Part shown: positions 1-28,404 of the stretch, piece after piece | Position numbering within the stretch: position 1 is the first letter of the stretch | Layout: the number at the start of each line of letters is the position of its first letter | Source of the DNA: Trypanosoma brucei | Lineage: Eukaryota | Assembly (NCBI GenBank): GCA_000002445.1 | Contig: CP000070.1 | Span: forward strand, 1,536,001 to 1,600,000 | Length of the DNA: 64,000 nt | Direction of reading: 5' to 3' | The notes under the pieces: generated by a model | Databases searched by the model: none | What the model was told of the DNA's origin: nothing | The model's input: the letters and a program-made list of their open reading frames with translations, nothing else | Position numbers and translations under genes: made by a program

Positions 1-1589
1 CGCTCCCGCAGTAAATACTAACGGATGTTTGTTGCTGAGTATGTGAAGGCTGTGACATATTTGATTTTGAATACAATAGTGGTTACAGGTGCGCGAATTG
101 GGGTGAGTGGGCGTCCGGGAGTGGTTTCAAGTTAATATTTATGTTTCCTTCTTTTTTTTTTCACTTTGGTGGTGTCAGGCCATTGTTATCACCTACACGC
201 CGTGTTCTGGTGGAACAGTAATGGTGGTGTTTGGGAGTGTTGTTTCCTATTTTTTTAATTCTGTTTTGATCATTCTGTGTAACCATTCACGGAGGTTCTG
301 GTGCTCTGTTTGATCTATTTTTTTTGTTTCGTTTTTATGTGATAACCATCAGGACTGTGTGCAGCGGTTACTCGGTTCTAACCTTTTATGTCACCTATTA
401 TTTTTGTTATTTATTTAAGTGGGGGGAAAACGTTCTAACTGAAGGAATGGCAAATGTTGGGAACAATCAGGCACTGGTAAATTTACGTTTCTGAATTTCC
501 ATATTTCTTTGAAATAAATAATGTATTCTGCGTACCTGCTTTTTGGTTATGTGGCTGTTGAATTTTTTTTTCCTTGTAAAGACGGTCATTTCACTTGTAT
601 GAATCACTTTCGCCTTTTGTGCAGCCTCGTAGAAAAGTTAAGAAAAAAAACGCTTATCTCTATACGGATACGCCGTTGGACGTCACGGAACTGTGCTTGG
701 CGCAATGCAGCTATGGTTATAGGAAAGATACATTTTGTTTAAGAAGAATTATGAATATGTGTCATGGCTGTGGACAAAAGAGAAAAAGAAGGGCATCTCC
801 GGTGACCGGAGGTGACGGATGGCCTACCGCCGCGGTTTAAAACTTCAAATTTGAAGTATTTCTTCAGTCTGAATATTTCGCCACCCAGGACCACTTAGAC
901 TAGTTACTCTACCCAATATTCATGGGTATTCTGTGAATGATGAACTTAAACATACTTTTTTCCTAACAAAACGCCTGAATGTGTTGAATGATGCACAACC
1001 AATACGTGTGTTCTGATAATTGGTATTTACCACCACCACCACCCTTAGTTAAACATATAAAAACATCATCCGCCGTAACGAACAGTTTTGGGACTTCACA
1101 TTTAGTTGGAGTTGCCCCAGCACTCTCGTGACACAAAATGTTAATACATCATTTCCCCCTAACTTGCAATCAATCCCCTATTTGTTTCGAAAGAGTATAA
1201 ATATTTTTTGAATGTCTGCGACGAGTGTATTAAATTTTTATTTATTTGCTCTCATGCGTTACGTATAGTACTTCGGCGATCGTCTTTTTGTTGCAATAAA
1301 TCATCCTCTTTGGGGGTGCTCTCCGCGTGCCTTGGAGATACCATGCAAATCATCCATTTTTGACTACCAGCCGTCACAGTCTCTTCACTTTTTTCATTTT
1401 CTTTTAAAACAGTGCAGCAGAGAGAGGGCAACGCATTCCGTTAAGAAGCTGTCAAGATATTTTTTGTCTCTTTGCCCTCCGGCAGGTTGCAGTTGTTCTT
1501 ACTCCGTTCAAGACAAGGCACGGGGGCGTGTAAGAGAAACAAAAGAAAATAAGTAAAAAAATAATAGCAAAGTAGGCAAGGTTGGCGTG

Positions 1590-3416
1590 ATGCCGACAAC
1601 GGCGGATATTGCGCAAAGCACAACCGAGCCACTGAGAGAACGACTACGCCGTACAACTGTACCTTCTTCCGTTACAACAACTTCGTCAACTGCGGAGGAC
1701 ACGGGAAGTGGTACAGAAGAAAGCTGCACTACACTCCTGCGAGGGGATCCGCAACTCGCTGCGGTGCTCGGTACGCTGCCAAGTTCATCGCGCGAGCTTC
1801 TGAGGCGCATTGAGCAACAGAAGGATGAAATTACCGTCTTAAAGGAGGAAAACACACGGCTACGGGCCCGGGAGGTTGAGGTATCGGCTTTAACACTTCG
1901 GCTGCAGCAGCAGTTCTCAGCAACGCAACTTCAAGTGGATCGCTTGAAATCACAAATACGTATGGAACTTATCAACCCCGTGACGGAAGATGAGTATAGG
2001 GCAATTGAGGCACTTGAAGAAAGCAAGAGGGATTTACTGGATACGGTGAAATGTGGTATTTTTCAACAACTTGGTTCCATGAGGGCTTCTAGGGATACTG
2101 CGGTCAGACGGGCAAGCGAGTTGGCAACTGAAGTCGCACGGCTCACTGATGAGAACAAAGAGCTTCAGCAGCGGATTAAAGAAACTGAAACAGTATTGGA
2201 TGTGGAGAGGCAGTCATTCCGAAGACAACTGCAGGAAGCAGAGCAAAGAGGTAGCTTAGTAACTGAATTAGAGGGGAAACTACGGGATGTGGAAACTCGA
2301 CTTAAAAATGCTTATATTGATCAAGAGCAGTTTCTCACAGCGAAACTGAATGCATCTGTGAAGACGGAGGATGCAACTAGACTTACACTGCGGGTACGTG
2401 AGGCAGAGATGGATGTTGAACGCTACAAAACCGCGGCAGAGTGTTCTGAGCAGAAACTTGATATACTGAAGGGAGAGTACTATGAACTGAAGCTGAAGAA
2501 CACCCAACGTATCATGGAACTGGAGGCATGCCTGAGAGCAGCGGAAGAAAAACTGAAAACCCTGTCAGACTTGGAACTTGAATCTGAGCTGTTCATATCG
2601 AATCTCGCTCAACAAGCGGACGGTCAACTAACCTTCTCCAGTATGTCTGCACCATCCGCTGGTGGGGGCGTTGTAGGAGACAAGGCTGCGCCTACATCAA
2701 CAAACGCATTGAGTAGCTATGAAAGTTGGTTGGCACTTCCACGCTCGCGTAAGTTGGCTCACACATTAACTGTGACGAAGCGTTGCTTGAATTTGGAAAA
2801 CCGCCTTACTGCGCTACAACATGACATTGAGTTTAAAGACAAACAACTCGCGCGACTCCAGACGTCGTTAGAAATGGCCCGGGAGGCTCTTAACAACACA
2901 AATAGCCCCTTTGCTATGGTGGAACGCACCGTCGAGAAGCTAACCGCTGATAATGAAGAGCTGCATAACAAAGTGATGAATCTTTCGGAAGAAAACGCAC
3001 TGCTTCGCCAGCGACTGGAGCAGAGAACCACCGATGTTCAAGTATTGTGCAATCACCGTAAGGAACTCCTTCGCATTCAGCGCATTCTTCGACGCCTCGG
3101 TCTTGAAAACCAAGTAGCTGATTCGGCCTCGCTGCCGTGTGGGACAAATAGAAAAGTGCAACGACCTCATGACCAAGGTGAAGTCGATGCCACTGGGGAA
3201 CTTGGAGGGAGCGGATACCGGCTAACGACAGCACATTTCGAATCACCAACTGATCCCTCAAAACAATACTCACGGTACCCAACTGATGATTCTCTGCGAA
3301 CCACTGCTGAAACAAAGATGTCAGCAACGGAGTGCAATATGCAGCAGACAATTGGTACGGAGGGGAACAGCTTCAATGCAGTAGTAACCCCAGGCGTTAT
3401 ACAGTTTTCCTCCTGA
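1590..3416 (+). CDS. Hypothetical coiled-coil protein, about 608 aa
   Basis: Long + strand ORF. The track start at 1587 is GTG; the first ATG is at 1590. Residues about 60-330 and 380-470 have heptad-like Leu/Glu/Arg/Gln-rich composition typical of coiled-coil, and the N-terminus is Ser/Thr-rich. A poly-pyrimidine tract about 1380-1410 upstream looks like a trans-splice acceptor. I recognise no catalytic motif. Confidence 0.65.
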   Translation: MPTTADIAQSTTEPLRERLRRTTVPSSVTTTSSTAEDTGSGTEESCTTLLRGDPQLAAVLGTLPSSSRELLRRIEQQKDEITVLKEENTRLRAREVEVSALTLRLQQQFSATQLQVDRLKSQIRMELINPVTEDEYRAIEALEESKRDLLDTVKCGIFQQLGSMRASRDTAVRRASELATEVARLTDENKELQQRIKETETVLDVERQSFRRQLQEAEQRGSLVTELEGKLRDVETRLKNAYIDQEQFLTAKLNASVKTEDATRLTLRVREAEMDVERYKTAAECSEQKLDILKGEYYELKLKNTQRIMELEACLRAAEEKLKTLSDLELESELFISNLAQQADGQLTFSSMSAPSAGGGVVGDKAAPTSTNALSSYESWLALPRSRKLAHTLTVTKRCLNLENRLTALQHDIEFKDKQLARLQTSLEMAREALNNTNSPFAMVERTVEKLTADNEELHNKVMNLSEENALLRQRLEQRTTDVQVLCNHRKELLRIQRILRRLGLENQVADSASLPCGTNRKVQRPHDQGEVDATGELGGSGYRLTTAHFESPTDPSKQYSRYPTDDSLRTTAETKMSATECNMQQTIGTEGNSFNAVVTPGVIQFSS

Positions 3417-3716: not shown

Positions 3717-4475
3717 AATCCCAGTGATAGTTAATTGAAGTGGCACTCAACAGGTTATGGGTGTCAAAATGGTGACATTAAAGCCGCTGGTTTGTGTCTA
3801 CCGATCTTGGCGACGAGATTCTTCCGTGGAAGCAGGCGGGAAAGTTAACATTGTGGAGCGTTTTTTTTATTGTTTACAAAACCCCCAATGACAACAACAA
3901 CAACAAGCGTCGGTAGTGCTGCAAGGAATGCAGGCGGCTATAGGAACAGCGGGTATTTCAGGGTGGGAAACACATTTTACCAGCAAGGCGTCACACATTT
4001 TTGTTGCGTCGGTATACTTGAGATGAGTTCCTGTCCTGCCATATATGTGACAATAGGCGTGTTTCGCAGGCTGATGCAACTTTATGAGGGAAGGGGAAAT
4101 TTGGGAATCAAAATTTAAGGTTTACTTCCCTGCTGCTCGTATTGCAAATTTGCAGTCCTGTGCTTTGTGTCTGTACACACATGCGCGCATACACACACTC
4201 ATAAATATTGCACGGCACTAATGTGCATTTCGTTAGTTTTCTTTTTGTTTGTTTGTTTGTTTGTGTTTCGAACCTTTATGCAACCTCATCCCATTGGTTG
4301 TTTCTTTAAACTCTCTTTTCCCTTCTATTTTTCTTTTTGGGGTCCTCCATCTTCTCACGAAAACTACCTTGGCACGTATACTATTCTCAGTTCACCTCAC
4401 TGTGGCTCGTTGTTGTCTTCGGAACTACTGCTTTACTTGCACGGTGACAGAAAGGGAAAAGAAAAAAGGGGGAAA

Positions 4476-5438
4476 ATGTCATCAACACTCCTTGCAACAG
4501 CTAACCAGTTCTATTTACTGCAACAAAAAAAAGGCCGTTCTTTCCCGCACCATGGATTCACACCACGAGCCATCGCTGCCAAGCGATTTGCAGAGAACAC
4601 CACAACGCTATCGCTTTCCGTTGGGTTTTTCCTTCCCACAATGACTCAAGTGCACCAGCAGCTCGAGCAATTGACGGTTGAGAGAGATGATATACCAATG
4701 GAAAAGGTGGTAACTACAGTAGTGGAAGCTATCAAAGATAATTTGGTTTTATTTGGTGACAAACTAGCACGACTGGCAGTGCAAACAGTAATTGCCTGTG
4801 GACTGGCTAAGAAGAATAAACCCTACATGAATAGTGTGGTGTACCTATGGAACGTATATCCGGGTCTCCACGATCACTACGTGGGGGAGACGCTCAGATA
4901 CTTGAGGCTTCCACGATTCCTTTCCTCTCTCTTTGGCCCACACGCTTTGAAGAGTGATGTTGATGTTTTCATGCAAGATATTTCCGCTGCCGCGGCAGCG
5001 GAAGACTCAATGAAACGTGCGGTTTTGGACATGGTAGCTGATAGTGTTGTTGACATGGTACGCGTATTGCTACCACCGTGGTTACTAAGGGGTCCCGCGC
5101 TGTCGTTTAAGCGGCGGTTGAAGCTGTTTGGACATGATATTCTCATGCGTTTCACAGTTGCTGTAACGAAAGTTACGGGTGCGGGAGTGGGTCGGGCCAT
5201 TGCCGGCCATCGTGGAGAGTACTGGGGTGAAATTATAGGCGTAGCAACCGCTTCATTTTTGTTCGAGCGAATTTCTGCCATGTTTCTGGATTACAAGCGG
5301 GCGGGGAGAATAGGCAGCAAGTCGGAGGTTGAGCGGGGGCGCAGCCGAAGCCACAGTCATGGTAAAGACGATGTGAAAGGGCTCACCTCCAAGCCGCAGA
5401 AGACGGGAGAAAGGGGGCGCAGGGAGGGGCGTCGATGA
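4476..5438 (+). CDS. Hypothetical protein; start uncertain (alternative ATG at 4639)
   Basis: Track ORF 4167-5438 begins at GTG inside a poly-pyrimidine tract. Its first 100 aa are a low-complexity translation of CT-rich DNA. The first ATG after the pyrimidine tract and an AG is at 4476 (MSSTLL...). The downstream part has normal amino-acid composition and a basic C-terminus. Confidence 0.45.
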   Translation: MSSTLLATANQFYLLQQKKGRSFPHHGFTPRAIAAKRFAENTTTLSLSVGFFLPTMTQVHQQLEQLTVERDDIPMEKVVTTVVEAIKDNLVLFGDKLARLAVQTVIACGLAKKNKPYMNSVVYLWNVYPGLHDHYVGETLRYLRLPRFLSSLFGPHALKSDVDVFMQDISAAAAAEDSMKRAVLDMVADSVVDMVRVLLPPWLLRGPALSFKRRLKLFGHDILMRFTVAVTKVTGAGVGRAIAGHRGEYWGEIIGVATASFLFERISAMFLDYKRAGRIGSKSEVERGRSRSHSHGKDDVKGLTSKPQKTGERGRREGRR

Positions 5439-6175
5439 TTTCACCATCACAGAGGGAAAACTAAAGAAACGATGCAAAAGAAAACGAAATGAAATGAAAT
5501 GAAAAATGGAGAATAAGATAGTGGTACTGAGGGAAATGGAATGGTGACTGGGTGCGTGCAAAAGATGGTATGTCTCCTTCCCGTTGTCATAAGTCACTCT
5601 TGAATTCCCCCGTAGTGTTTTGCACCAACGTGTTGTTGACTCTGAGGGTCCACAAATCTTTTCTGTTTTAAATTACTATTATTTCTGTTATTGTGATTAT
5701 TCGTTTTCCATTTGTGTGTCTTTCTCTTCGGATTTTCCCTTGAAAGGGGGGTTACAGCATTTCTTTTTATAATGGCGGCGGTGGTGCCACACACTTTTGT
5801 TGTTGTGTTGTGTATGGGTTTGGTAATATTTTTCGGTACTGATGTTCCTCCGCCACTGGCAGTACATAGACTGCGTCGAATTGGTGCAATTCGTGTGTTT
5901 ATCCACTGCCTATGCTTAATGACTTCCCCCCTTTTTTTGCTGCTGTTGACTACATCTGCCTCCATATGAAAGCAGCAAGCGATAGAAATGATGAATTTGC
6001 TGTTGTAGTTTCGCCTCGTGATCCTGTAATCTTGTGTTGCTGTGTTTCTTTTTCACACGTGGTCTCAATGATTCGCTCGCATATTGGTTCTCTCATTCTG
6101 TTTTAAGATATGAAGTAAAGAATTGGGACCACGCAGTTTTAGCTCCTTTTTTGTTCCGCATTGTTCCAAGCACTT

Positions 6176-7072
6176 ATGTTTACCTCAACTGCTGCGTACT
6201 GCGGCTCTGCAGGGTCCCGGTTATTTGTTGTGGCGCTGTTGCTCGCATTTTGTGTTGTCACCGGTACAACTGTATCAGATGAAAGAGAAACAGTGAATTC
6301 ATCATGTGAAAATCCCTCCCTTCATGACACACATCACTGGGGATTTCTGGGCGGCGGGTATCACATGCAGTTGGAGGTCGAGTTCCCGCTTATTTTCAAT
6401 TCCGTAGACATTTCGCTTGACCTCCCGCGGACCTTCTTTTTTGATGCGGCAGAGCTTGAGCAGTTGTACAGCATCAAACTGCAGGGTAGTAAAGAAGACA
6501 TCACCTGGGCTTACCAACCACTCAGGATTTCCTCTGATTACTTCTTTGACATCGAGGCGCCAGTGTTTCATGTGGGGTATGAAGTGAATCGAGTGAACAT
6601 CACGTTTGAGCGCCTGCCGTCCGCTTCTCGAAGATATTCCAACGGAAGCGCTGCAGCTATTGATATTTTTGCATCGGCTGATGATGCAAGGGGAAGGCTG
6701 TTGGTACCAATACATGCGCGATACGAGGAGGTGGACTCAACCACACCCTTCTCTCTTCAGGCATTCTTTAGCCGCAATACTTCTGTGCGGCGGTGCATTC
6801 CTTCGATTACTGTTCGCGGTGTTGTTGTGGACCGAGGCGGGCGCTGCGTAAAGTTCGTCTCGGCTTTAATGAAGCGATATGATGACGCATTAACCTCATC
6901 ATTAACATCTCCTCCCGTATCGGTTTTGGATGGCAACATCCCGGAGACATCGCCGGGGTGCAGAAATGTACCCGTTGGCCTTTTGTCATCGCTGAGAGTT
7001 GTGTACACAACCGTGGTGGCGCTGCAGTGCATTGGAGCCGCTATTGTTATTTTGTCGCTGTTATTGTTGTAA
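6176..7072 (+). CDS. Hypothetical secretory or surface protein: N-terminal signal peptide, several N-x-S/T sites, C-terminal hydrophobic tail (possible GPI-anchor signal or transmembrane helix)
   Basis: Track ORF 6161 starts at TTG; the first ATG is at 6176. The N-terminus MFTSTAAYCGSAGSRLFVVALLLAFCVVTG is a hydrophobic signal-like segment. The last about 20 aa (VVALQCIGAAIVILSLLLL) are hydrophobic and end at the stop. N-glycosylation sequons are present (NSS, NIT, NGS, NTS). Confidence 0.5.
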   Translation: MFTSTAAYCGSAGSRLFVVALLLAFCVVTGTTVSDERETVNSSCENPSLHDTHHWGFLGGGYHMQLEVEFPLIFNSVDISLDLPRTFFFDAAELEQLYSIKLQGSKEDITWAYQPLRISSDYFFDIEAPVFHVGYEVNRVNITFERLPSASRRYSNGSAAAIDIFASADDARGRLLVPIHARYEEVDSTTPFSLQAFFSRNTSVRRCIPSITVRGVVVDRGGRCVKFVSALMKRYDDALTSSLTSPPVSVLDGNIPETSPGCRNVPVGLLSSLRVVYTTVVALQCIGAAIVILSLLLL

Positions 7073-7729
7073 GCAGAGAGGACTAGGGGATGCAAACAGA
7101 TAATTGAATACGGGCTGTCGGTTGGTTTACATTCGTGCATATATATATATATATATGCGTTGTAAGGGAGAGGAATTAGTGTACAATTCGTGGGAATCCG
7201 CAAGCTGGTCGGATGTGTGTACAATTAATTGTTGTTGTCCTCTCGCTGGAAGTGGCCTCAGGACGCAGCGGGTTTTTTTGTTGTGGCGGGAATTTACTTT
7301 TCTTTGGGCGAGTGTGTAGGGGGGGGGAGGTGAGACATCCACAATTACTCTTTTCGACTGTTTAATGGTGTACGCACGTATCCTCGACGAGTGTGCTTCA
7401 CAGTTTGTCGGTGTAGTATCTGCTGCGTTTTCTTCTGTATACGCGCTGTGGAGGTGCTTCTTTTTTTTTCAGCTGAAGGACCGCCTCGGTTGTTGTGTTT
7501 CCCTTAATAACTCCCTTATTATTGTTATTATTTTCTTCTTACTGTGTTTATTGCCTTTTGCATCACGACGTCTCGATGCGTCAGCTGCAGCGTGGCATTA
7601 AATTTCCTTCTTTATCGTCAAAGCTCGCAGGAAAAGCGGAGAGAGTGGGGGTGGGGGTATAGTTTGACGTGTGTTATCCAAACTGTGAACAGTAGAAGCG
7701 ATAACAACATCGAAGCAAGTAGACCAATC

Positions 7730-8779
7730 ATGGTCCGCGCCCTACGCTCTGTCACAACACACCGGCATCCCACCGTTCGTGCACCGGCCTCACTGCTTTA
7801 TAACAATCTTTCGTTTGTTGAGGAGCACTCCTTGCTGGTTTACACATCTCGCAGGGACTGTGTCATTGTGAACACCGAAACAAATCAGGCACATCTGCTC
7901 CCCATTGGATCAATGGAAAATGAAATGATTCTCCAATGTAGTGCCATTCATGCACCTGGTGCCGAGGACGGTATGGAACCGCAAGTACTTATCCTCATCA
8001 CCATGCACAAAACAACACAATTGTGGACGGCCAATAAACCCATTAGCCTTGTATCACATGGTGGTGTGCATGGGGAAGGTTCGTGCGGTGGTCTTGCCGC
8101 TTCCGCTGGGGGAGGGGCACACGTCATCATGGGCACAAGTAAAGGTGTGGTGATGTTTGCCGAATATTGTGGGGGGGCTGCACCAATGAAGGACGAGGCA
8201 GATCAAGATGCGGCAACATCGTCTTCAATCTTTCGTGTAGCTTCCGCAGTGAAGGGGCACAAGGAGCGGGCGGTCACGGCAGCGCAAATAAGTAGGTTTC
8301 CGGACTCCGAACTCCTTGCGGTAAGTGGTGACGCAGCCGGTCAGCTGCTCCTCTGGAGTCGAGACCAGCAGCCGCTCGTTTCCATCTCCACTTTGGAGTG
8401 TGTGACGGCGGTCCAAATTGTTAGTGGCGGTGACTTCGTAGTTGCAGCGAGTGGCGCCGGTCGTTTGCTGGTATTAGACTCCCATACTGGCAGCACATGC
8501 ATTGACGTATGTGCTCATTCAAGGTGGATACACAATTTGTCCTTCAACGCAGCATGTAACATGATTTTGTCTGCAGCGGAAGATGGCTATGTGACGGTGT
8601 GGGCACTTCCCAGCGATAAGAAACAAAGCATTGTGGACTTTAGACCTGCTGTGATGCATCACACTCCGCATTCATTGCCTACCGGTGCAGCAATATCTGC
8701 CGATGGGTCAACGGTTTTCGTAACTATTTATGATGTGGATGGTGTGAATCAGTACACGGTTACTGCGGACAGAGAGTGA
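7730..8779 (+). CDS. Hypothetical WD40-like repeat protein, about 349 aa
   Basis: Track ORF 7544 starts at GTG; the first ATG is at 7730. It has repeated Gly/Ala-rich beta-strand-like motifs ending in hydrophobic-W/L-D. Examples are GQLLLWSRD, GRLLVLDSHTG and ILSAAEDGYVTVWALP, which resembles a WD-repeat terminus. Confidence 0.5.
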   Translation: MVRALRSVTTHRHPTVRAPASLLYNNLSFVEEHSLLVYTSRRDCVIVNTETNQAHLLPIGSMENEMILQCSAIHAPGAEDGMEPQVLILITMHKTTQLWTANKPISLVSHGGVHGEGSCGGLAASAGGGAHVIMGTSKGVVMFAEYCGGAAPMKDEADQDAATSSSIFRVASAVKGHKERAVTAAQISRFPDSELLAVSGDAAGQLLLWSRDQQPLVSISTLECVTAVQIVSGGDFVVAASGAGRLLVLDSHTGSTCIDVCAHSRWIHNLSFNAACNMILSAAEDGYVTVWALPSDKKQSIVDFRPAVMHHTPHSLPTGAAISADGSTVFVTIYDVDGVNQYTVTADRE

Positions 8780-9249
8780 CAAGAGGGGACAAGCAGAAAT
8801 TTAACGGAATTGATGATATGACTTTCGTGCTGCGGTACAAAAGCAACAAAATGATAGAACACATGTGAATAGGCGGCGATACAGGCGTGTAATGAACTGA
8901 ATGAACCGTTTGCGGTGAGGTGCACCTTTTCTGCTCTCTTTGCATCCTGAGCACGGGGAGGGGCCGGAGTATTTCCCCCTGGTGTAGCGATCTCTCCGTC
9001 TGGCTTACTTTAATTGAATGTTATTCTGGTTCCCAACATTTAATGGTAGCTCTCATTGCAAAAGATCTTGGTTGTTTGCAATGTCTTTTTTTTCTATGTT
9101 GTGCGTGCAGATTCCTCTTTCTGTTACCACTGTATTTCGTTTCTGCGCTGATCTGCGGCATTACTCAAATAAATAAAGCAGCGATAGCAATAGCTATAGA
9201 TAGTGTGAAATAGAAGCCAAGGGAATCAATAATTCGAAGAAGCAAACGG

Positions 9250-11457
9250 ATGATGGAGGGAGCAACGCAGTCCTCACTGAGCCAAATACCCGTTCATGAC
9301 AGGGTTCTGTTGAGCGGTAACATGGACAGCGTAGATGATGATTTAGAAACTGTGATCTTTAGTGATGGGGAGGACAATCTTGAAACTTGTACAGTAGTGA
9401 CAGAAACGGATTCAGATGGAGACGCGGGGCAGCACCTTCGGGGGGCAACTAACGGCGGTGCAGCCAACCGCTTACACTCGCAACACACGTTAGGGGATTA
9501 CTCGGATCATACAGTACAGCGCACAAATAATATTCCCCCCACTCCCGCTCCGGCTATGGCCCCGGTCTCAGCTTCGTCCCTCGTTACTTCAATTGTTCCC
9601 GAACCTCAGCTACCCGTCTCCTTTTCTTCGCAAGCTTTTCCGGTTATCTTACCGGTTATGCAAATGACATGGGAACTGCTCGCACCAGTAGCCGCTGAGG
9701 AAGGGGTGGAGAGAGAAGGGGAAGTTGGGAAGCAACAGTCGGGTGGAAAATTTTGTGTGCGTTATTGTTTGGCATCAAAATATGGTGAACCCCTACGACC
9801 TACGGATATCAACGAATCGGCGCTACCGGAGAGACTTACCTGTGCGTGCAGAATGGGTCGGGATGACATTCCTCAGCCGATGAAGGCCCTGCGGACAAAT
9901 GGAAGAAATCAACAGACCTTACTATACAAGCACACAATTTCTCGCGAGCACTGTGTCGTGCGGTTTCATTTCAAATTGCAATGTGCCCCTCAAGGATCTG
10001 CTGCGGCGGCTCCTTCGGGACAGAAACCGTTCTACAAGTGGACATCCTTTGACGTCACGGATTTGTCATCCAGCAACGGTACATACTGCCGTACAGTAAG
10101 ATTGTTTCCTTCGCACCGCTACAGCTTCCCTTTAACGAGGACAAACGCTGCTCAGTGCGTGGAGTTGCAGCTTGGGACCCACTATCAATGCACCATACGT
10201 GTATTGGGTGGCAATTCTATTGCTAATTGTAGTCGCCTGGTCAGCTCATCGGATGCATCGTCCACAGCAGTGGCGGCAGTCGATGCTTCCGTGCAGTTCT
10301 CCCCTTCACCTGAAGTTGTGCTGACCAATTTTCCACCACCTAAGAAGGTGCCTAGGATTTACAACGGATGTTCCCCCTTTTACGTGGAAGATGAATATGA
10401 CAATGACAACAGCAATAATAATAATAATATTGATGGTGTTTCCTCTTCTCTGGCCACTAAACCTGGTTACACCCAGCAGGAGCCGAAGGAGAAGTTGGGT
10501 TGTGCAACAGTTGAGGAGTCCCCGATGCCTCGTCCAGTCAGACAAAGCTGTGAAGAGGTCAGTAATACTGCGCCGTCGACTCTTCCAAAGCAAACAACTG
10601 TGGAAGCGGAGGGGACGAGCGGAAATGCACACAGAACAAGTACTAACCAAACTGACAGTCGGCGCGGGACAGTGACACCCTCCGTCGAGGTGCTGTCAAG
10701 TAAGGTGAAGGAACCCAAGTGTTCATTAACTGTTGTCACCACTGGCATCCACTGCAAACAGGGTGTTATGCAAAGCTTGTTGCACATGAATATTTACATG
10801 AATCCTGACATTTCGAACTATAAGAAGGTAACGCATCTTGTTATTAAAGGCCCACTCGTGCGCAGCATCAAGCTTTTAACAGTGTTGCCATACGTGCATC
10901 ACCTTGTGAACGTTGAATGGTTTGAGGGTATCCTCTCGTGCATCCCAAAAGACCCCATGAAGCGGCCACCAAACCTAGCGGCAGTGCTCGAAAAGTTTAA
11001 TCCCAGTGACTTCACTTACAGTGAAGAGCCCAGCGCTGACAGTATTGAGGTTCTTAACGATTTTTCCCTGAAAGCGCTGATGGACACACCGCCAGAGAAG
11101 CGTCAGGCGCTCTTCGAGGGGCTTGTCTTTTATCTCCATCCCGCTGCGAAGCCGCAGAGTGACGCTGATAATAATCTTCGCCGTGTCATTGTTGCTTCTG
11201 GTGGTACCGTCACGCGAAGAGCCGCGTTGGCATCTGTTGCCATCCTACCGGAAGCTAACATGTGCGGCACCGGGGTGGCCTGGGAAGGGGTGGCGAAGTG
11301 CCGAAAGGAGCCCCTGTGCATTTTTGTTACAACTGAAGATTTATTTCGAAGCGTGCTTCAGCAGCGGCGGTTGACTGCAACGACAGTGCAACGTCCACCG
11401 GGTTGCACGGCATTACCACCTTCCCCGCAATCTAGACAAAAACGGAAAAGGAGTTGA
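9250..11457 (+). CDS. Hypothetical protein with an FHA-like domain (about aa 225-330) and a C-terminal BRCT-like domain (about aa 600-700), 735 aa
   Basis: ATG at 9250. The FHA consensus is visible: SREHCVVRF...FDVTDLSSSNGTYCRTVRL. This matches the conserved Ser-Arg-x-His, Asp-Leu-x-Ser-x-Asn-Gly-Thr and following hydrophobic residues. The C-terminal segment RQALFEGLVFYLHP...RRVIVASGGTV resembles the BRCT Phe-x-Gly...Gly-Gly pattern. The C-terminal KRKRS could act as a nuclear localisation signal. Domain calls are made by eye. Confidence 0.6.
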   Translation: MMEGATQSSLSQIPVHDRVLLSGNMDSVDDDLETVIFSDGEDNLETCTVVTETDSDGDAGQHLRGATNGGAANRLHSQHTLGDYSDHTVQRTNNIPPTPAPAMAPVSASSLVTSIVPEPQLPVSFSSQAFPVILPVMQMTWELLAPVAAEEGVEREGEVGKQQSGGKFCVRYCLASKYGEPLRPTDINESALPERLTCACRMGRDDIPQPMKALRTNGRNQQTLLYKHTISREHCVVRFHFKLQCAPQGSAAAAPSGQKPFYKWTSFDVTDLSSSNGTYCRTVRLFPSHRYSFPLTRTNAAQCVELQLGTHYQCTIRVLGGNSIANCSRLVSSSDASSTAVAAVDASVQFSPSPEVVLTNFPPPKKVPRIYNGCSPFYVEDEYDNDNSNNNNNIDGVSSSLATKPGYTQQEPKEKLGCATVEESPMPRPVRQSCEEVSNTAPSTLPKQTTVEAEGTSGNAHRTSTNQTDSRRGTVTPSVEVLSSKVKEPKCSLTVVTTGIHCKQGVMQSLLHMNIYMNPDISNYKKVTHLVIKGPLVRSIKLLTVLPYVHHLVNVEWFEGILSCIPKDPMKRPPNLAAVLEKFNPSDFTYSEEPSADSIEVLNDFSLKALMDTPPEKRQALFEGLVFYLHPAAKPQSDADNNLRRVIVASGGTVTRRAALASVAILPEANMCGTGVAWEGVAKCRKEPLCIFVTTEDLFRSVLQQRRLTATTVQRPPGCTALPPSPQSRQKRKRS

Positions 11458-12340
11458 ATGTTTTCTTTTTTTATTTTTCAGTTTTATTTTATTTTGTTTC
11501 TGTGTTGTTCCGGCTGTTTTGCGCTTATGCCACACACACACACACACACTAGAAAACATGAAGGACTTTATATGTTTGCTTAAGCCGGTGTACGATTATA
11601 CATATATATGCAATTATTATCTTTATTGTCATTACTATATGAATGCAACGTATATGTCGACCTGTGCGTCTGGAGGCCAAAGTAAAGAAATATATACCTA
11701 CATTTATATACATAAATGCAAATATAATAATATATATATGCATCTACCAACATCTTATTTATAGACGCATTCCTTTATATACCGTCGTATTTTGCCCGTA
11801 CCCCCATCCCATTCTTGTGCGTACTCCTCGTTTTTAAAAATATTTTCTCTTTTTTAACTCTATTTGACCGATTCCTTTTCTGTGTCCACATTTATGTTTT
11901 TGTACGTTGGTTGCGGAGAAGCATGATGATGCGTCGCTGTTTTCAACTTTAAATGCATTTAGCATTCACGTATGCGTGTATGTTTCGACGTTTGTGCGCA
12001 CGTGAACCTTTCTTGTATCTGTAGCTGCTGCTTTTCAAGCGTTGACACGTTAGCGTCCCCGGGCTATTGCTGGTTAGGGGGTGGCCCAGATATTTGCTCC
12101 CATTCATAAGTAAATAAACACAAGTATGTGTATATGTATGTGAAGCTGCAGACTCGTTGCATTCCTTCTCTCTTTCTTCCCTGTCATATTAATTTTGATT
12201 GCGTCGTGTGCGGAGGCGAAGGAGAACAGGCACAAGGTAAAAAAGACACCGACGCGCATATTTTGGTTGTCTGTGTACTTCAACAATATAGCGTAGTGAC
12301 TAACTCGAGACGAGGTAATCGATCTTCGTGCTCAAGGATC

Positions 12341-13840
12341 ATGCTACGGTCCTTTAGAAGTAATGCTTTTGGCCTATTAATACCCGGAGCTTGTACCATT
12401 CGTGGTCGGCATTTGCCTGTCTCTTCGTTGGAGGGCACTGTAGGTTTTACTCGTTTAACCTCCGCACGGGCTTTGTTTTCAGCCACACATTTACTCTGGC
12501 GGAGGCAGCATGGACCCACCAACGTCCTCTTCCAACTTGATGCGCTGCCACCAAACTTGCAGCGGGAATTTCACAAGGATGAAAATGCAGTGAACTTGAC
12601 ATATCTAGTCGACCTCCCTTCCTCCAAAATAGCATCGTCTCATGAGGACAGTAGTGACGGCACTACTAAGAGTGATACCAAGAGCCCGGTTATTAAGGTG
12701 CTTCCCACATGGGCCCACATTGTAACATGGTGTTGTGCCACTTGTGGATGCCAGTGGTCGGCTCGTCCAGTGGACCGTACAGATCCACAGGTGGCTGCAT
12801 TTTACAGTTGTCCGAGATGCGCGGCCCGCACGGCGAAAAAACACTGTTCAGACACCCCGCTGGCGGTCTCGCCCAGTACTCCTTCGTTCCCTCCGGGGAG
12901 ACGGTTTGCGGAGGCATTTCCCCTGCTTGCAGCACAGTGGGATGCATGTCGTAACAGTGTAATTCACAACAAGGTACTTTTTGAGTCCGTCGCCGATGTG
13001 CCACTGCCTTGCGCCACCATCGTGTGGTGGTCGTGTCCCCATTGCGGGGAGCCGTGGAGGGAGTCAGTAAACTCGCGCGTTCAGCGGTTAGTGCAACAAC
13101 AACAGAAACACTCGTCGAACGGGAATGTGAAAAGCAATAACACATGTATCCCGCTGTGCCCCTCATGCGAAGACCGTGGTTTGTCACTAACAGTTCCCAA
13201 AGATGGTAACGAGGGGTCAAAGGAGAAATCATCTAGTGAGCGGCGAAGCAAAAAGAAAGGTAACCAGAATAGTGAATTGAAACGCTTCTTGAAGGACAGT
13301 CCCCTGCTTCTCGCCGAGGCCCAGTTGCAACCACATGAAGATCCTGGAACCATTGCACTGCGTAGCAACAAGTTGGTTTGCTGGAAGTGCCGCAGGTGCA
13401 CCTATGAATTTGTTGCCTCAGTTGCCGACCGCTTCCTTCGTTACAAACGGTGTCCGCAGTGCACCGGGGAAAAACGCACACCACTTAACCTTCTTTCCAT
13501 CCAGCGTCCCGATGTCCTTCGTGAGATTGCACGAACAGTGGTCAGAGGAAAACTGTTGAAGATGACCGTCCACGATGACACAGTCGTCCCATTCGTTTGT
13601 CGCAGCTGTTTGTCCATCTACCGCATGCCCATTCGCCTCCGCTGCCTACTGCCTGAAGGGGCAACAGCTTGTTCAAAGTGTATGTGGAGTCGATCAAAGT
13701 TTACAAGAGAGGTCGTTTCCGTTGGTAAAGGACAAAAGGGTGCTCCCTTCCGTTCACCACCAAAGAAGAAAAGGGGGAGGGATTCGTATGCCGTAGTGGA
13801 TAATGAGTTGCACTTACGCGATACTGATCTCATGAATTGA
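12341..13840 (+). CDS. Hypothetical multi-zinc-ribbon protein with mitochondrial-presequence-like N-terminus, about 499 aa
   Basis: Track ORF 12128 starts at GTG in a pyrimidine tract; the first plausible ATG is at 12341. The N-terminus MLRSFRSNAFGLLIPGACTIRGRHL is Arg/Ser/Ala-rich with no acidic residues. There are at least four repeats of a W-x-C/CC-x2-C-G-x-x-W ... C-P-x-C pattern. Examples are WCCATCGCQW...CPRC, WWSCPHCGEPW...CPSC, CWKCRRCTYEF...CPQC and CRSC...CSKC. Confidence 0.6.
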   Translation: MLRSFRSNAFGLLIPGACTIRGRHLPVSSLEGTVGFTRLTSARALFSATHLLWRRQHGPTNVLFQLDALPPNLQREFHKDENAVNLTYLVDLPSSKIASSHEDSSDGTTKSDTKSPVIKVLPTWAHIVTWCCATCGCQWSARPVDRTDPQVAAFYSCPRCAARTAKKHCSDTPLAVSPSTPSFPPGRRFAEAFPLLAAQWDACRNSVIHNKVLFESVADVPLPCATIVWWSCPHCGEPWRESVNSRVQRLVQQQQKHSSNGNVKSNNTCIPLCPSCEDRGLSLTVPKDGNEGSKEKSSSERRSKKKGNQNSELKRFLKDSPLLLAEAQLQPHEDPGTIALRSNKLVCWKCRRCTYEFVASVADRFLRYKRCPQCTGEKRTPLNLLSIQRPDVLREIARTVVRGKLLKMTVHDDTVVPFVCRSCLSIYRMPIRLRCLLPEGATACSKCMWSRSKFTREVVSVGKGQKGAPFRSPPKKKRGRDSYAVVDNELHLRDTDLMN

Positions 13841-14414: not shown

Positions 14415-17400
14415 ATGGTTTCACGTGCACCGTCTTTCAGCGTGCCTAACGCAGTAGGAGTTCCGCAGGTTGACGATATCGCCCTGTTTTTATGTGGCCG
14501 CGCGATTGCGGCGGAGTGGCCCAAAGTATCTGCTGCAAATGCATCGGCAGCGGAGGCACTGGCTGCATGGTACCTCACGAAGGTGGCGCAGATGCATGAG
14601 CGTCCAACCACAGACACCAAAGGGGCATCGAACCTCGGCATGGAAGAACGGTCACCCGTAAGGGAGGCGGAATACTACCAAACTAACGAAGCGAATTTTT
14701 CCGATGCGTTCGAAGCTCTGTCACGCCCTGCTGGTGAGATCGACGCACTCGTAACACAAAAACTAGACAGGGAAGATCATCAACGCGGGTGGGGTCTTTC
14801 AAAGAATCTTTTAGATGGTTTTGCAAAGACATCGGGTCTCTTATTAACTGAGAAAGATATCATGGCCATTGATGATGAAATGAAAAGGAGCTTCAGGTGC
14901 TTTGAAGAGTTACTTGACATTTGCCTCCACTTTGGAGAAACGACCCATTGCAACAATTTTATATACCATATCATCTGTTTCAACATCGATAACACAGCGC
15001 TGTCTAGCCACACCACCCAAATGCTTTGGAACGAAATGGGCATTGATGATCGCGCTGCCGTTATACTCCCTGTGCTGTCAAGACTTTTTAGTGTGTGCGA
15101 CGAATTAGGTTCTCAGCATGCTGCAGGAAGTATCACACATTCCTTTATTGTGTGGTTAGGCGTGAGTTGGAACTGTGCATCATTTAGTTGGCAGACCCAT
15201 GTTTCCCGGGTGACTGGCTGTCTACTCGCAGAGCTGGAAAAGAAATTAATACTTGTGAGAAAAGATCCTGCTGCGCTAACGGCTGGTTTGCGTGACGACT
15301 CCACACCGCATGCACGTAGAGGCTCGAGGGCGAAGCCATCGCAGAAGGCTTTTGGAGTATCTGGAAGCAATCGACAGTTAAATATCGTCAGCATGCACAA
15401 GGCAATGCGTCGCATCTGTGAGGGGCGTACTCTAGATTCAAAGGGTTTGCTCGAGGCACTTGTGGAGAGCGGATCTGGCGCTGCACTACCTTTGCGTGAC
15501 TACAACAATGTTTTAGAATATATTTTTAGTGAACAGGCTCATGGTGGAGCCGTGGGCACTCAGGAATCGCAACAACAGCAGTGGCACCACTCGATTCTTT
15601 CTAATATAATGAATGGTGTGCTCCTATACTCACAGTTTTACCTCTCTGTGAGGTCGCTCGAGGCCTCACTACGTTGCGCACAGATGGGAGTTCTAGTGGG
15701 TCATCAGTGGCGTTCCAGCGAGCTTCTCACCATAGCGCATTACAACAGTTTTCTTGTGCATGTTGCATGCCAAGACACTCCGGCCGCTGCTGGTGACATC
15801 GCTATTATGCTCCAACTTGCTGATGCAGCCACGCGGAGAGACGGGAATGCGGAAACAGACGTCAATGCTCCGCGATTCCGCGCTGGGTGCTTAGGTTACA
15901 TGGGTGCGGCTCTGTTACTTCTGATATCCCCTGGAACTGTAGACACATCACTTCGGTCCATTATAATCACTGGCATCGTGGCAGGGGTTCGCCCAACGTC
16001 AGAAACTGCAGGTGGTGCTGGAAACATGCGTTGTGGAGGCAGTGGTAGCGTTAGTAGTAATGCAAACGCCTTGCTTTGCACAGCCGCGGAGGCTGCGACA
16101 GGTGGTGGTTCTGTTGTGGTTCAGACAACAGCACAGACAGTACGCCACGCCTTATGGCTATCCGAAATGGAGGCCTTCCTTGATCCTTCGTCGACCGTTT
16201 CGACAGAGGTTATTACATCTGTTGCAAGGGCGACATTGATGCTGATTGCCGGTCACTACGGCGTTTGCACGTGCACGAAACCAATAGACAGCGACTCCCT
16301 CGCCCAGCAGTTGAGTCTAATCGAGGAATCCACACTTGACTCTACTAACAATGTACCCGAGCCCTCAGAGCTCCTCCTCCGTGAGACCATGCGACTGACG
16401 GCGCACCACGCTCTAGCCGTTCAAGTTGGCACAGCAGAGGCGCCATCCGGCGCCGGTCCCTTTAGGATCCTGCACACGTATTTAACAGCCGTGGAGAAAC
16501 ACTACGGCGCGAGCGGGCTGGCCGCAGTGGAGCAGAACTTCTTTTTTGTCTCTACTTACCGTTTCTTATGTGCCATGTGGTTACGCACGTGTGGTTACTT
16601 GAAGTCGGCTTATCAAGAGCTCACTCGGCTGGTAGAAAGCATGCTCTTCTACAGTCGCTGTGGATCCGATTCTCACAACGAAAATGTGTCAACACCGGCA
16701 CCAACTACCAGGAAGGCGTCCACGCAGCCAAACTTGCATACAAACGCAGACCTGCTTGGAGTTGACGAGCATTTGTTGGGCGAAAGTCCAGTGAAAATGG
16801 CTGGTTCCACCGTCAAGGAGGAGGAAACGCTGCAGTTTTGGCCGCCAGATCATCTCCTCCTTTGGCAACATGTGCAGTTTGAACGAGCGCAACTGGCTCA
16901 CTATCTTGGGTACTCTTGTGTGATTCTTGAAATAAGTGAAACGCTACGGCGTGTTAGTGCGGCGAGTCACTTCGTTATGGGTGTATTGTATGCCGACTTA
17001 ATTGCCGCAATGACATGGACGCAGCGGAAGAATTACTTTGGTGCTCTCCAGGCGCTAGAAAAGATAGAAAGCAACGCCGAGAGTATCGGACTGACGCTCG
17101 TGCAAACCCATGCTCGAGTGCGACGGGTTTCCATTCTTCTTGCCTGTAGCCGTTGGCAGGAAGCACTCGATACGCTTCGTGTCATGCAACCCATTCCTTC
17201 CCTGCTGGAGCATTGGTACCTCCTCACTCACTTGCACGCACAAAGTGAAGTGTTGATGGCGTGTCCCGACGCAACGGAGGGAGATCTTGCAACTGTTGTG
17301 GACCGGCATATACAAGAGATGGAGATGTGTGGATCTTTTGTGGACGTAACGGGAAAAGAGGATTCTGTAGGTATTACATTGCTCGATAAAATGTGCCTTT

Positions 17401-17606
17401 ATGCTTGCATCGATCGACACTCTGCGGCACTCCCCGGGCGGGGGCGGCAATCTTGGGATGAATGTTTAAATGTACTGGCACGGGAACTGCAGCAACGTCA
17501 GTTGCAAGAGGGGAAGTGGCAAGTGCTGTGGAACATGCCCATGCGGAATGTCTGCAATGAGGTGCTTTCGAATGCATTACTTAAGAGGGTGCTGAAAACA
17601 TCCTAA
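14415..17606 (+). CDS. Hypothetical protein, 1063 aa, no domain recognised
   Basis: Uninterrupted ATG-initiated + strand ORF of 3.2 kb with ordinary, non-repetitive amino-acid composition. A pyrimidine-rich tract lies upstream (14100-14200). An ORF this long is improbable by chance at this GC content. Confidence 0.7.
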   Translation: MVSRAPSFSVPNAVGVPQVDDIALFLCGRAIAAEWPKVSAANASAAEALAAWYLTKVAQMHERPTTDTKGASNLGMEERSPVREAEYYQTNEANFSDAFEALSRPAGEIDALVTQKLDREDHQRGWGLSKNLLDGFAKTSGLLLTEKDIMAIDDEMKRSFRCFEELLDICLHFGETTHCNNFIYHIICFNIDNTALSSHTTQMLWNEMGIDDRAAVILPVLSRLFSVCDELGSQHAAGSITHSFIVWLGVSWNCASFSWQTHVSRVTGCLLAELEKKLILVRKDPAALTAGLRDDSTPHARRGSRAKPSQKAFGVSGSNRQLNIVSMHKAMRRICEGRTLDSKGLLEALVESGSGAALPLRDYNNVLEYIFSEQAHGGAVGTQESQQQQWHHSILSNIMNGVLLYSQFYLSVRSLEASLRCAQMGVLVGHQWRSSELLTIAHYNSFLVHVACQDTPAAAGDIAIMLQLADAATRRDGNAETDVNAPRFRAGCLGYMGAALLLLISPGTVDTSLRSIIITGIVAGVRPTSETAGGAGNMRCGGSGSVSSNANALLCTAAEAATGGGSVVVQTTAQTVRHALWLSEMEAFLDPSSTVSTEVITSVARATLMLIAGHYGVCTCTKPIDSDSLAQQLSLIEESTLDSTNNVPEPSELLLRETMRLTAHHALAVQVGTAEAPSGAGPFRILHTYLTAVEKHYGASGLAAVEQNFFFVSTYRFLCAMWLRTCGYLKSAYQELTRLVESMLFYSRCGSDSHNENVSTPAPTTRKASTQPNLHTNADLLGVDEHLLGESPVKMAGSTVKEEETLQFWPPDHLLLWQHVQFERAQLAHYLGYSCVILEISETLRRVSAASHFVMGVLYADLIAAMTWTQRKNYFGALQALEKIESNAESIGLTLVQTHARVRRVSILLACSRWQEALDTLRVMQPIPSLLEHWYLLTHLHAQSEVLMACPDATEGDLATVVDRHIQEMEMCGSFVDVTGKEDSVGITLLDKMCLYACIDRHSAALPGRGRQSWDECLNVLARELQQRQLQEGKWQVLWNMPMRNVCNEVLSNALLKRVLKTS

Positions 17607-18225: not shown

Positions 18226-18633
18226 ATGTCGGAATACGCAGATTGCACGGAAGTGGCTAAGAAGGCGCTTGAGTTTCGCCAGCAGTTTTACCAACTGTTA
18301 GATAACCCAGAGAGGCGGGGTGATATTGTTGCCTTGTATGCTCCAAACACACCTCTCCTTTGCGAATGGAATGGACATGCCCTCCCAGACACCGCTTCCA
18401 TCGCTGCATATCTCGGCGGATTACCCCGTACAAATCACAAAGTTGATTGTGTGGATGCGCAACCGCTTCCGGGTAATGAACGGGCGGACTCATTTCTCAT
18501 GACAGTCCATGGCGTAGTCACATATGATGATGAACATAAGAGGGAATTCTTTCAGAGGTTTGTTATTAGAAAGGTAGAAGAGCGGTATTACATAATGAAT
18601 GATTATTATCGCTGGTTAAGTGAAAAGGAGTAA
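18226..18633 (+). CDS. NTF2: Nuclear transport factor 2 (NTF2)-like protein, 135 aa
   Basis: Its length and motif order match the NTF2 fold: FxQQFYQLLDN, then Leu-Tyr and Leu-x-W-x-G, then I-x-x-L-x-x-LP and H-x-V-x-x-V-D-x-QP, then a terminal hydrophobic beta segment. Called by eye against the canonical NTF2 sequence. Confidence 0.6.
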   Translation: MSEYADCTEVAKKALEFRQQFYQLLDNPERRGDIVALYAPNTPLLCEWNGHALPDTASIAAYLGGLPRTNHKVDCVDAQPLPGNERADSFLMTVHGVVTYDDEHKREFFQRFVIRKVEERYYIMNDYYRWLSEKE

Positions 18634-20267: not shown

Positions 20268-21662
20268 ATGTCCACGCGGAAAGAGCCACCGAAGGTTCTT
20301 AAAGGCGCCGCCTATACGGAGTGCAGTCCCATATCTGATGTTTCTCATCACAAGGCTTCCGCAAGCAAGGCATTTCTGGAAAATCATTACCGTGGGATGT
20401 TGCGTGACACCCGAAGTGGAAACACCGCGCGCCCCGTTGGCCCTCGCCCGAGGGAACCATGTGTGGACGACTTTGTGCTCGTCAAACGCATCGGGAAGGG
20501 TGCTTTTGGTGAGGTGTACCTTTGCTATAAAAAATATGACAACGACAAACAGTTATATGCACTAAAGCGAATGCGCAAGACGGATATGATACGCAAGAAG
20601 CAGATTTCGCACGTTCGTTCGGAGAAGGATGTGATGGCCGAAGCGGCGTCCACAAATCCGTGGGTGGTGAAACTGTACCTCAGTTTCCAGGATGAACAAT
20701 ACTTATATATGGTGATGGAGTACATGCCAGGTGGTGATATGATCTCATGGTTGTGCATCAAACAGCGGTTTGACGTAGAGAGCACACGGTTTTATATTGC
20801 TGAGCTGTGCGCTGCGGTTGCAAGTGTTCATGACATGTTCTTCGTTCATCGTGATATCAAACCCGATAACATTCTTTTGGACGCCAAAGGGCACATCAAG
20901 CTAACTGACTTCGGGCTTTCCAAGCGTTTCGCAAAGGTAGGAGAGGAACTTCTTGACTTAGAGGAGGGCAACGACGCCTTGTGTAGTAGCAATAGCAGTG
21001 CAAACCTGTCAAATACCTGCGGTTCCACCTGCCAAGGGCCAAATTCCGTACCAGTCGTATCCCCCCACAACCCCCACTCACCCACTGCAAACTACAATAG
21101 TTTGACACCTGCCGGGTCTCATGCCTCCGCACATCCCCAGGCTCGTCGCATCTTTGAATCTATTGTTGGTAGTCCGGGTTACATCGCACCAGAGATTCTT
21201 CTGCGACAGCGATATGGTGTGAACTGTGATTGGTGGTCTGTTGGTGTTATCATGTATGAAATGCTTTACGGGATCCCACCCTTCTTTTCCAGTGACACGA
21301 GCTCCACCTGTCACAAAATAACACACTGGCGGGAGTACCTCACTTATCCATCAGATCGTGGCGTCCCACCGGAGGCGACAGATCTTTTGCGTCGCCTCAT
21401 GTGTGATCAGCGGGATCGTCTTGACTTTCAGGGCGTGAAGGAACATCCTTTCTTTAATGATATTGATTGGGAGCGATTGCGAGAGACTCCTCCGGCATTT
21501 GTTCCTGAATTATCAGACCCACTCGACACGCATTATTTCCCTGAAGTAGAAGATAATACACCGCAGCAACATCATCAGCGACCGGAGGAACGCAACGCCG
21601 TCAGGGAAGTGGATCCGCGGGGCGTGATATTTGCAGACTACAAATTCAACCTCAAACGGTAA
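20268..21662 (+). CDS. PK53: NDR/LATS-family AGC Ser/Thr protein kinase, 464 aa; probably the T. brucei NDR kinase PK53
   Basis: Kinase subdomains are clear: IGKGAFGEVYL (Gly loop), YALKRMRK (VAIK-type Lys), HRDIKPDNILLD (catalytic loop), DFGLSK, SIVGSPGYIAPE and DWWSVGVIMYEML. An insert of about 80 aa sits between DFG and APE, which is characteristic of NDR/LATS kinases. There is an N-terminal regulatory extension before the kinase domain. The symbol comes from my recollection of the chromosome 7 gene order and is not verified. Confidence 0.85.
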   Translation: MSTRKEPPKVLKGAAYTECSPISDVSHHKASASKAFLENHYRGMLRDTRSGNTARPVGPRPREPCVDDFVLVKRIGKGAFGEVYLCYKKYDNDKQLYALKRMRKTDMIRKKQISHVRSEKDVMAEAASTNPWVVKLYLSFQDEQYLYMVMEYMPGGDMISWLCIKQRFDVESTRFYIAELCAAVASVHDMFFVHRDIKPDNILLDAKGHIKLTDFGLSKRFAKVGEELLDLEEGNDALCSSNSSANLSNTCGSTCQGPNSVPVVSPHNPHSPTANYNSLTPAGSHASAHPQARRIFESIVGSPGYIAPEILLRQRYGVNCDWWSVGVIMYEMLYGIPPFFSSDTSSTCHKITHWREYLTYPSDRGVPPEATDLLRRLMCDQRDRLDFQGVKEHPFFNDIDWERLRETPPAFVPELSDPLDTHYFPEVEDNTPQQHHQRPEERNAVREVDPRGVIFADYKFNLKR

Positions 21663-21777
21663 CTGCTGTTTTTTTTTTAAGAAAAAGAAAGATAAGAAAA
21701 AAGAGAGGAAATAAATCAAGAGAAAAGTACAACGGCCCACGCTGCGCGTACATTTCGCATATGCATATGAAAGATGC

Positions 21778-21823
<46 letters not shown>

Positions 21824-28370: not shown

Positions 28371-28404
<34 letters not shown>

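What the first reader, a model, noticed from the sequence alone, without database searches (positions are those of the whole stretch)
9250..11457. FHA plus BRCT domain protein: candidate DNA-damage-response scaffold
A 735-aa protein carries a recognisable FHA core (SREHCVVRF...DLSSSNGTY) and a C-terminal BRCT-like fold (LVFYLHP...RRVIVASGGTV). It ends in a basic KRKRS tail that resembles a nuclear localisation signal. FHA plus BRCT architecture characterises phospho-dependent checkpoint and repair mediators such as Nbs1, MDC1 and PNKP-like proteins. Here the FHA is central, not N-terminal, so this is not a straightforward Nbs1 orthologue. Most of the sequence is low-homology and Ser/Pro-rich, which fits a scaffold.
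Basis: inference. Interest (0 to 1): 0.55.

Follow-up and report, generated by a model that had tools for sequence, protein, structure and literature searches.

The report
Trypanosome MDC1-like FHA plus tandem-BRCT protein
This Trypanosoma brucei gene encodes an uncharacterised protein built like the human DNA-damage mediator MDC1 (an FHA domain, a floppy linker and a pair of BRCT domains), and it is the best candidate so far for the unknown protein that reads the parasite's DNA-damage mark on histone H2A.

The parts
9084..9110 (+). Polypyrimidine tract (9084-9095) and first downstream AG (9109-9110): likely trans-splice acceptor, 139 nt upstream of the ATG
   Evidence: Read directly from the sequence. 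Function inferred from general kinetoplastid mRNA processing.
9250..11457 (+). Complete ORF, 735 aa plus stop. T. brucei XP_846196.1 / Q582I8; Tb927.7.5730 by gene order (inferred).
   Evidence: Anchors pATOM36 = Tb927.7.5700, TbPBN1 = .5710 and PK53 = .5770 come.
9250..9639 (+). N-terminal disordered region (aa 1-130). Contains an acidic Ser/Thr cluster (aa 27-58, nt 9328-9423) and a 'GAAH[DN]SQ'-type SQ site (S77-Q78, nt 9478-9483), both shared by Trypanosoma orthologues.
   Evidence: pLDDT 25-37. Motif conservation seen by eye in orthologue N-termini. Phosphorylation not tested.
9640..10224 (+). FHA module (aa 131-325): an 11-strand beta sandwich with two extra N-terminal strands and two insertions (aa 205-230 and 241-266). 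Pfam FHA core is aa 219-287 (nt 9904-10110). Signature residues are G203-R204 (R204 at nt 9859-9861), S231-R232-x-H234 (S231 at nt 9940-9942) and S275-N276-G277-T278 (N276 at nt 10075-10077).
10225..10716 (+). Disordered Ser/Thr/Pro/Asn-rich linker (aa 326-489), poorly conserved, with no internal repeats
   Evidence: pLDDT 33-46. No repeats by TRF or self-BLAST.
10717..10944 (+). BRCT1 (aa 490-565), carrying the phosphopeptide pocket: T498-G499 (nt 10741-10746), R538 (10861-10863), S539, K541 (10870-10872)
   Evidence: Pfam RTT107_BRCT_5 at aa 483-563. pLDDT >93. R538/S539/K541 align with MDC1 R1933/T1934/K1936. T498-G499 aligns with the PTIP 'FTG' and Crb2 'TG' motifs. G499 is conserved 31/31, R538, S539 and K541 each 30/30, and T/S498 27/31.
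10945..11109 (+). Inter-BRCT linker (aa 566-620) with the conserved 'SIE..N.FSL..L...R' motif (E600, F605, R618). It aligns with the MDC1/PTIP linker '..E..FGFSL..'.
11110..11409 (+). BRCT2 (aa 621-720).
   Evidence: Pfam BRCT_2 at aa 621-707. pLDDT mostly >90. The tandem packing matches PTIP, MDC1 and Mdb1 with target-normalised TM 0.66-0.71.
11440..11454 (+). Basic C-terminal tail KRKRS (aa 731-735): NLS-like
   Evidence: Basic clusters occur at or near the C-terminus in most family members. Nuclear import not tested.

Best explanation
The gene encodes a kinetoplastid-wide, probably nuclear, adaptor with the MDC1/Mdb1 architecture: an acidic disordered N-terminus, an FHA domain, a disordered linker of about 165 aa, a canonical C-terminal tandem BRCT and a basic tail. 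Proposed mechanism: after DNA damage or replication stress, histone H2A is phosphorylated on Thr130, giving the tail ...KA-pT-P-S-V-COOH. The tBRCT would dock on this tail. T498/G499 and K541 would hold the phosphate, R538 would hold the free carboxylate of the +3 residue, and the BRCT1-BRCT2 cleft would take the +3 Val. The FHA domain (phosphate-binding R204 and S231 conserved) and the phosphorylatable acidic and SQ motifs in the disordered parts would then recruit or oligomerise further repair and checkpoint factors on damaged chromatin. Shown here: the two folds, their order, the invariant pocket residues, and membership of the structural and sequence group of gammaH2A(X)-binding BRCT pairs. 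Inferred: the ligand (gammaH2A), nuclear localisation, and everything downstream.
Confidence: 0.5

Rival explanations
1. It is a phospho-dependent adaptor whose tBRCT reads a non-histone pS/pT-x-x-hydrophobic motif, as the BRCA1 tBRCT reads pS-P-x-F. It would act in replication, mitosis or chromosome segregation rather than, or in addition to, at gammaH2A.
Against: All three ranking methods put gammaH2A(X)-binding pairs first, with non-histone readers below. The gene is not one of the chromosome-7 KKT genes, which are Tb927.7.4850.4860 and .2110. The Arg that binds the free +3 carboxylate in MDC1 is invariant.
Confidence: 0.3
2. It is a reduced PTIP/Brc1/Rtt107-type replication-stress scaffold, in which only the C-terminal gammaH2A-binding BRCT pair is retained and an FHA replaces the N-terminal BRCTs.
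Against: From my own knowledge, the defining four N-terminal BRCTs of PTIP, Brc1 and Rtt107 are absent here. The model contains only one BRCT pair plus an FHA. FHA plus C-terminal tBRCT is the MDC1/Mdb1/Dictyostelium architecture. In mechanism this rival overlaps with the best explanation, since both read gammaH2A.
Confidence: 0.1
3. It is the kinetoplastid NBS1/Xrs2 subunit of the MRN complex (FHA plus two BRCTs).
Confidence: 0.04
4. The domain resemblances are chance matches in a largely disordered, lineage-specific protein.
For: All single-sequence Pfam hits are below the gathering thresholds, with E about 1e-3.
Confidence: 0.01

Closest known systems
MDC1 family (human MDC1, Drosophila MU2, S. 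pombe Mdb1, Dictyostelium EAL70982)
   Different: Sequence identity is low (about 16-20% over the tBRCT). The R1932 equivalent is hydrophobic. There are no SDT, TQXF or PST repeat arrays. A 130-aa disordered extension precedes the FHA. The FHA has two insertions and extra strands that give it SMAD-MH2/IRF-like matches. The presumed ligand is pThr-Pro rather than pSer-Gln. The lineage is Discoba, whereas the family was previously reported only in Opisthokonta and Amoebozoa.
PTIP BRCT5/6, S. pombe Brc1 BRCT5/6, S. cerevisiae Rtt107 BRCT5/6
   Different: Those proteins have six BRCTs and no FHA. This one has a single BRCT pair and an FHA.
NBS1 / Xrs2
   Same: It also contains one FHA and two BRCTs.
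   Different: The domains are not contiguous or packed together here. The BRCT pair is C-terminal, there is no room for a C-terminal Mre11/ATM-binding region, and the structural match is weak.
Kinetoplastid kinetochore proteins KKT4 (tandem BRCT) and KKT13 (FHA)
   Same: They belong to the same lineage and use the same phospho-reader domain types.
   Different: They are different genes: KKT4 is Tb927.8.3680 and KKT13 is Tb927.7.4860. Each has only one of the two domain types. No chain named KKT4 appears among the listed sequence or structure hits.

Membership tests
MDC1/Mdb1 family | C-terminal tandem BRCT with canonical head-to-tail packing | tested here: met
   [not shown]
MDC1/Mdb1 family | Phosphate-binding Thr/Ser-Gly at the end of beta1 and Lys in alpha2 (MDC1 T1898, K1936; Mdb1 S392, K434) | tested here: met
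   T498-G499 aligns with the PTIP and Crb2 TG motifs. K541 aligns with K1936. Conservation is 27/31, 31/31 and 30/30.
MDC1/Mdb1 family | Arg that binds the free carboxylate of the +3 residue (MDC1 R1933) | tested here: met
   R538 aligns with R1933 and is invariant, 30/30.
MDC1/Mdb1 family | Arg contacting the +2 residue (MDC1 R1932, conserved in Mdb1) | tested here: not met
   Position 537 is I, M, V or A in most members and never R. The kinetoplastid +2 residue is Ser, not Glu, so this may reflect the ligand rather than non-membership.
MDC1/Mdb1 family | FHA domain N-terminal to the tBRCT | tested here: met
   [not shown]
MDC1/Mdb1 family | Direct phospho-specific binding to the gammaH2A(X) C-terminal peptide, and gammaH2A-dependent damage foci | not testable with these tools
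   This needs peptide pull-down, ITC and imaging. No published data were found.
MDC1/Mdb1 family | Orthology (common descent) rather than a convergent architecture | tested here: inconclusive
   The best PDB sequence match is PTIP, not MDC1. No non-kinetoplastid relative was recovered by phmmer at E<=1e-3. No eukaryote-wide tBRCT phylogeny could be built.
Metazoan MDC1 specifically | SDT repeats, TQXF cluster and PST repeat array in the middle region | tested here: not met
   There are no internal repeats and no SQ/TQ enrichment. Only a single acidic Ser/Thr cluster (aa 27-58) is present.
NBS1/Xrs2 | FHA fused directly to BRCT1-BRCT2 as one compact N-terminal module, plus C-terminal Mre11/ATM-binding motifs | tested here: not met
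   [not shown]
PTIP/Brc1/Rtt107 | Six BRCT domains (four N-terminal plus the C-terminal gammaH2A-binding pair) | tested here: not met
   Only one BRCT pair is found by Pfam and in the model. The N-terminal folded domain is an FHA.
Pfam FHA (PF00498) | Score at or above gathering, and the signature G-R ... S-x-x-H ... N-G | tested here: inconclusive
   [not shown]
Kinetoplastid kinetochore proteins KKT1-19 | Gene identity with a listed KKT locus | tested here: not met
   The chromosome-7 KKT genes are Tb927.7.4850.4860 and .2110. This locus lies between Tb927.7.5710 and .5770. KKT20-25 and the KKIPs were not checked.

The most novel reading that the evidence does not exclude
This is the missing reader of trypanosomal gammaH2A and a true MDC1 orthologue in Discoba. 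Its tandem BRCT would be adapted to a pThr-Pro-x-Val-COOH tail instead of pSer-Gln-Glu-Tyr/Leu-COOH. That would place the FHA-tBRCT mediator architecture at or near the last eukaryotic common ancestor. It would also give a direct handle on how DNA breaks are signalled during VSG recombination and antigenic variation.
Probability: 0.4. Interest if true: 0.6.

Novelty: new member of a known kind. Interest (0 to 1): 0.45.

Why it matters
Trypanosomes mark damaged chromatin with an unusual gammaH2A (pThr130, not an SQ site), and DNA breaks and their repair drive antigenic variation. My literature searches found no protein that reads this mark. A conserved protein with the MDC1 architecture, an invariant phosphopeptide pocket and a BRCT pair of the gammaH2A-reader class is a concrete candidate that can be tested directly. 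If confirmed, it would fill the step between the damage kinases and effector recruitment in kinetoplastids. It would extend the MDC1 family beyond Opisthokonta and Amoebozoa, where it was previously reported (PMC4013092). It would also provide a natural example of a tandem BRCT that reads pThr-Pro with a free C-terminus. If it binds something else, it is still an uncharacterised, lineage-wide dual phospho-reader.

Tried and rejected
- Word-indexed homologue searches returned only one cluster each, for the single protein and for the BRCT profile. The exhaustive phmmer search supplied the family instead.
- The AFDB fold library was unavailable, so no annotated non-kinetoplastid full-length analogues could be retrieved.
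- Literature searches by accession and by gene ID found nothing. The DNA-damage phosphoproteome supplements have no entry for Tb927.7.571-.575. The stored MMS RIT-seq table is truncated and lists only the neighbours .5710.5720 and .5740, all 'No effects'.
- SQ/TQ enrichment is absent. SDT/PST-like repeats are absent.
- Lmj_04_BRCT, a published Leishmania BRCT drug target, is a single BRCT and a different protein.
- Identity with kinetochore protein KKT13 or KKT4 was rejected by gene ID.
- NBS1 identity was rejected on architecture and structural fit.
- An N-terminal T6-Q7 reminiscent of MDC1 T4 (my recollection) is not conserved among orthologues, so I dropped it as evidence.
- The neighbouring genes (pATOM36, PBN1, a WD40 protein, a treble-clef zinc-finger protein, an NTF2-like protein, an NDR kinase) give no functional clue, because kinetoplastid polycistrons are not operons.
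- The contig of the divergent member P0035 shows same-strand gene order but no taxonomic label.

Full report
**Observation.** The window is Trypanosoma brucei chromosome 7. All large ORFs lie on the + strand. The ORF at 4167-5438 is pATOM36 and the one at 6161-7072 is PIG-X/PBN1-like. A small NTF2-like ORF sits at 18226-18633, and an NDR-type kinase at 20268-21662. These match published IDs Tb927.7.5700 (pATOM36).5710 (TbPBN1) and .5770 (PK53), and .5760 is also cited in the literature. It is 99% identical to the representative of a cluster that contains XP_846196.1 / AAZ12637.1 / UniProt Q582I8 of strain TREU927. The sources call these proteins only 'hypothetical protein, conserved' or 'FHA domain-containing protein'. 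By gene order it should be Tb927.7.5730, which is my inference. A polypyrimidine tract and AG 139 nt upstream fit a trans-splice acceptor.

**Is it more than chance?** On the single sequence, Pfam is marginal. FHA (aa 219-287) gives E=1.1e-3, 19.7 bits against a 20.7 cut-off. BRCT_2 (aa 621-707) gives E=1.1e-3. RTT107_BRCT_5 (aa 483-563) gives 2.6e-3. The only PDB sequence hit was PTIP BRCT5/6, and it aligned with two separate stretches (aa 495-564 and 599-655). That suggested two BRCT repeats rather than one.

**The family.** An exhaustive phmmer search of 1.84 billion representatives found 32 relatives. The named ones are T. rangeli, T. vivax, T. grayi, T. melophagium, Leishmania tarentolae, Leptomonas pyrrhocoris, Lotmaria passim, Phytomonas and Strigomonas. 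All are hypothetical or auto-labelled. The rest come from metagenomes or read-archive assemblies, and one sits on a contig with same-strand, polycistron-like gene order. Scanned individually, 20 of 32 members hit RTT107_BRCT_5 (best 1.3e-7), 18 hit BRCT_2 (3.9e-8) and 8 hit FHA (2.6e-8). The domains are therefore real.

**The tandem BRCT.** A profile of aa 488-712 hits PTIP BRCT5/6 (1.5e-12), S. pombe Brc1 BRCT5/6 (1.5e-7), MDC1 (about 8e-6, four constructs), S. pombe Mdb1 (2.3e-4) and Crb2 (0.019). After that the hits are noise. From my own knowledge, every one of these is a documented gammaH2A(X)-binding pair. hhalign against the MDC1 tBRCT gives 96% probability, E=2.3e-9.

**The pocket.** Wei et al. 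(PMC4013092) state the roles of the MDC1 residues: T1898 and K1936 bind the phosphate, R1933 binds the +3 carboxylate, and R1932 contacts the +2 residue. Here R538-S539-V-K541 aligns with R1933-T1934-V-K1936. T498-G499 aligns with the PTIP 'FTG' and Crb2 'TG' motifs. Across the family, G499 is 31/31, R538, S539 and K541 are each 30/30, and T/S498 is 27/31. The R1932-equivalent position is always non-basic. The inter-BRCT linker motif SIE..N.FSL also aligns with the MDC1/PTIP linker.

In Trypanosoma species the N-terminal disordered part carries a conserved acidic Ser/Thr cluster (aa 27-58) and a conserved SQ site (S77-Q78). Basic clusters close most family members. SQ/TQ sites are not enriched, and there are no repeat arrays.

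**Mechanism.** Glover and Horn showed that trypanosomal gammaH2A is H2A phosphorylated on Thr130, three residues from the C-terminus (peptide KHAKA[pT]PSV), and that it forms foci at breaks and at stalled forks (PMC3334830). That is the same geometry as pS-Q-E-Y-COOH. From my own knowledge, a +1 Pro is tolerated by tBRCTs, since the BRCA1 ligands are pS-P-x-F.

I therefore propose that the tBRCT docks on gammaH2A, and that the FHA and the phosphorylated disordered segments recruit or oligomerise partners. The folds, the pocket conservation and the class assignment are shown. The ligand, the localisation and the downstream events are inferred.

The main reservations are these. The pocket is generic to phosphopeptide-binding tBRCTs. 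tBRCTs usually prefer pSer. PTIP, not MDC1, is the closest sequence. No experimental data exist for this gene.

**Literature and novelty.** I searched for trypanosome or Leishmania work mentioning MDC1, tandem BRCT, FHA or a gammaH2A reader. No description of this protein or of any kinetoplastid gammaH2A reader turned up. The published Leishmania 'Lmj_04_BRCT' is a single BRCT. The FHA and BRCT kinetochore proteins KKT13 and KKT4 are other loci. The library covers open-access papers and bioRxiv only, so an unseen report cannot be excluded. The finding is a new member of a known kind: an MDC1-type mediator candidate in Discoba. Interest is moderate. It would not surprise a DNA-damage specialist, but it makes the question of who reads pThr130 directly testable.

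Noticed in passing
window 21700-32700: There is an 11-kb stretch with GC 0.31-0.34, against 0.44-0.50 elsewhere. It has no ORF of 200 aa or more on either strand, only short simple repeats (AT, TAA, T-rich units), and no tRNA or Rfam hit. It lies between the PK53-like kinase gene and the next + strand ORF. This is unusually long for an intergenic or UTR region inside a polycistronic unit, and it remains unexplained.
   Followed up: partly
window 12128-13840 (+): The immediate downstream neighbour is a 570-aa protein with two matched stretches of DUF4379, the 'probable treble-clef zinc finger' (E=2.1e-20). It is otherwise uncharacterised.
   Followed up: no
window 7544-8779 (+): The upstream neighbour is a beta-propeller protein whose only near-threshold specific match is WDR54 (26.0 bits against a 26.6 cut-off).
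   Followed up: no
window 14415-17606 (+) and 1587-3416 (+): Two large ORFs (1063 aa and 609 aa) have no Pfam match at E<=1e-3.
   Followed up: no
window 54223-56013 and 56980-58797 (+): Two tandem paralogous MFS/Nodulin-like transporter ORFs (596 and 605 aa). They resemble the start of the PAD (proteins associated with differentiation) carboxylate-transporter array that I recall on T. brucei chromosome 7 (the identification is from memory).
   Followed up: no
window 9250-9290 (aa 1-13 of the target): The T. brucei protein starts MMEGATQSSLSQ, with a TQ at residues 6-7. This recalls MDC1 Thr4, the ATM site bound by the MDC1 FHA during dimerisation (my recollection). It is not conserved in T. 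rangeli, T. grayi or T. melophagium, so it is probably coincidental.
   Followed up: partly
[not shown]
   Followed up: no
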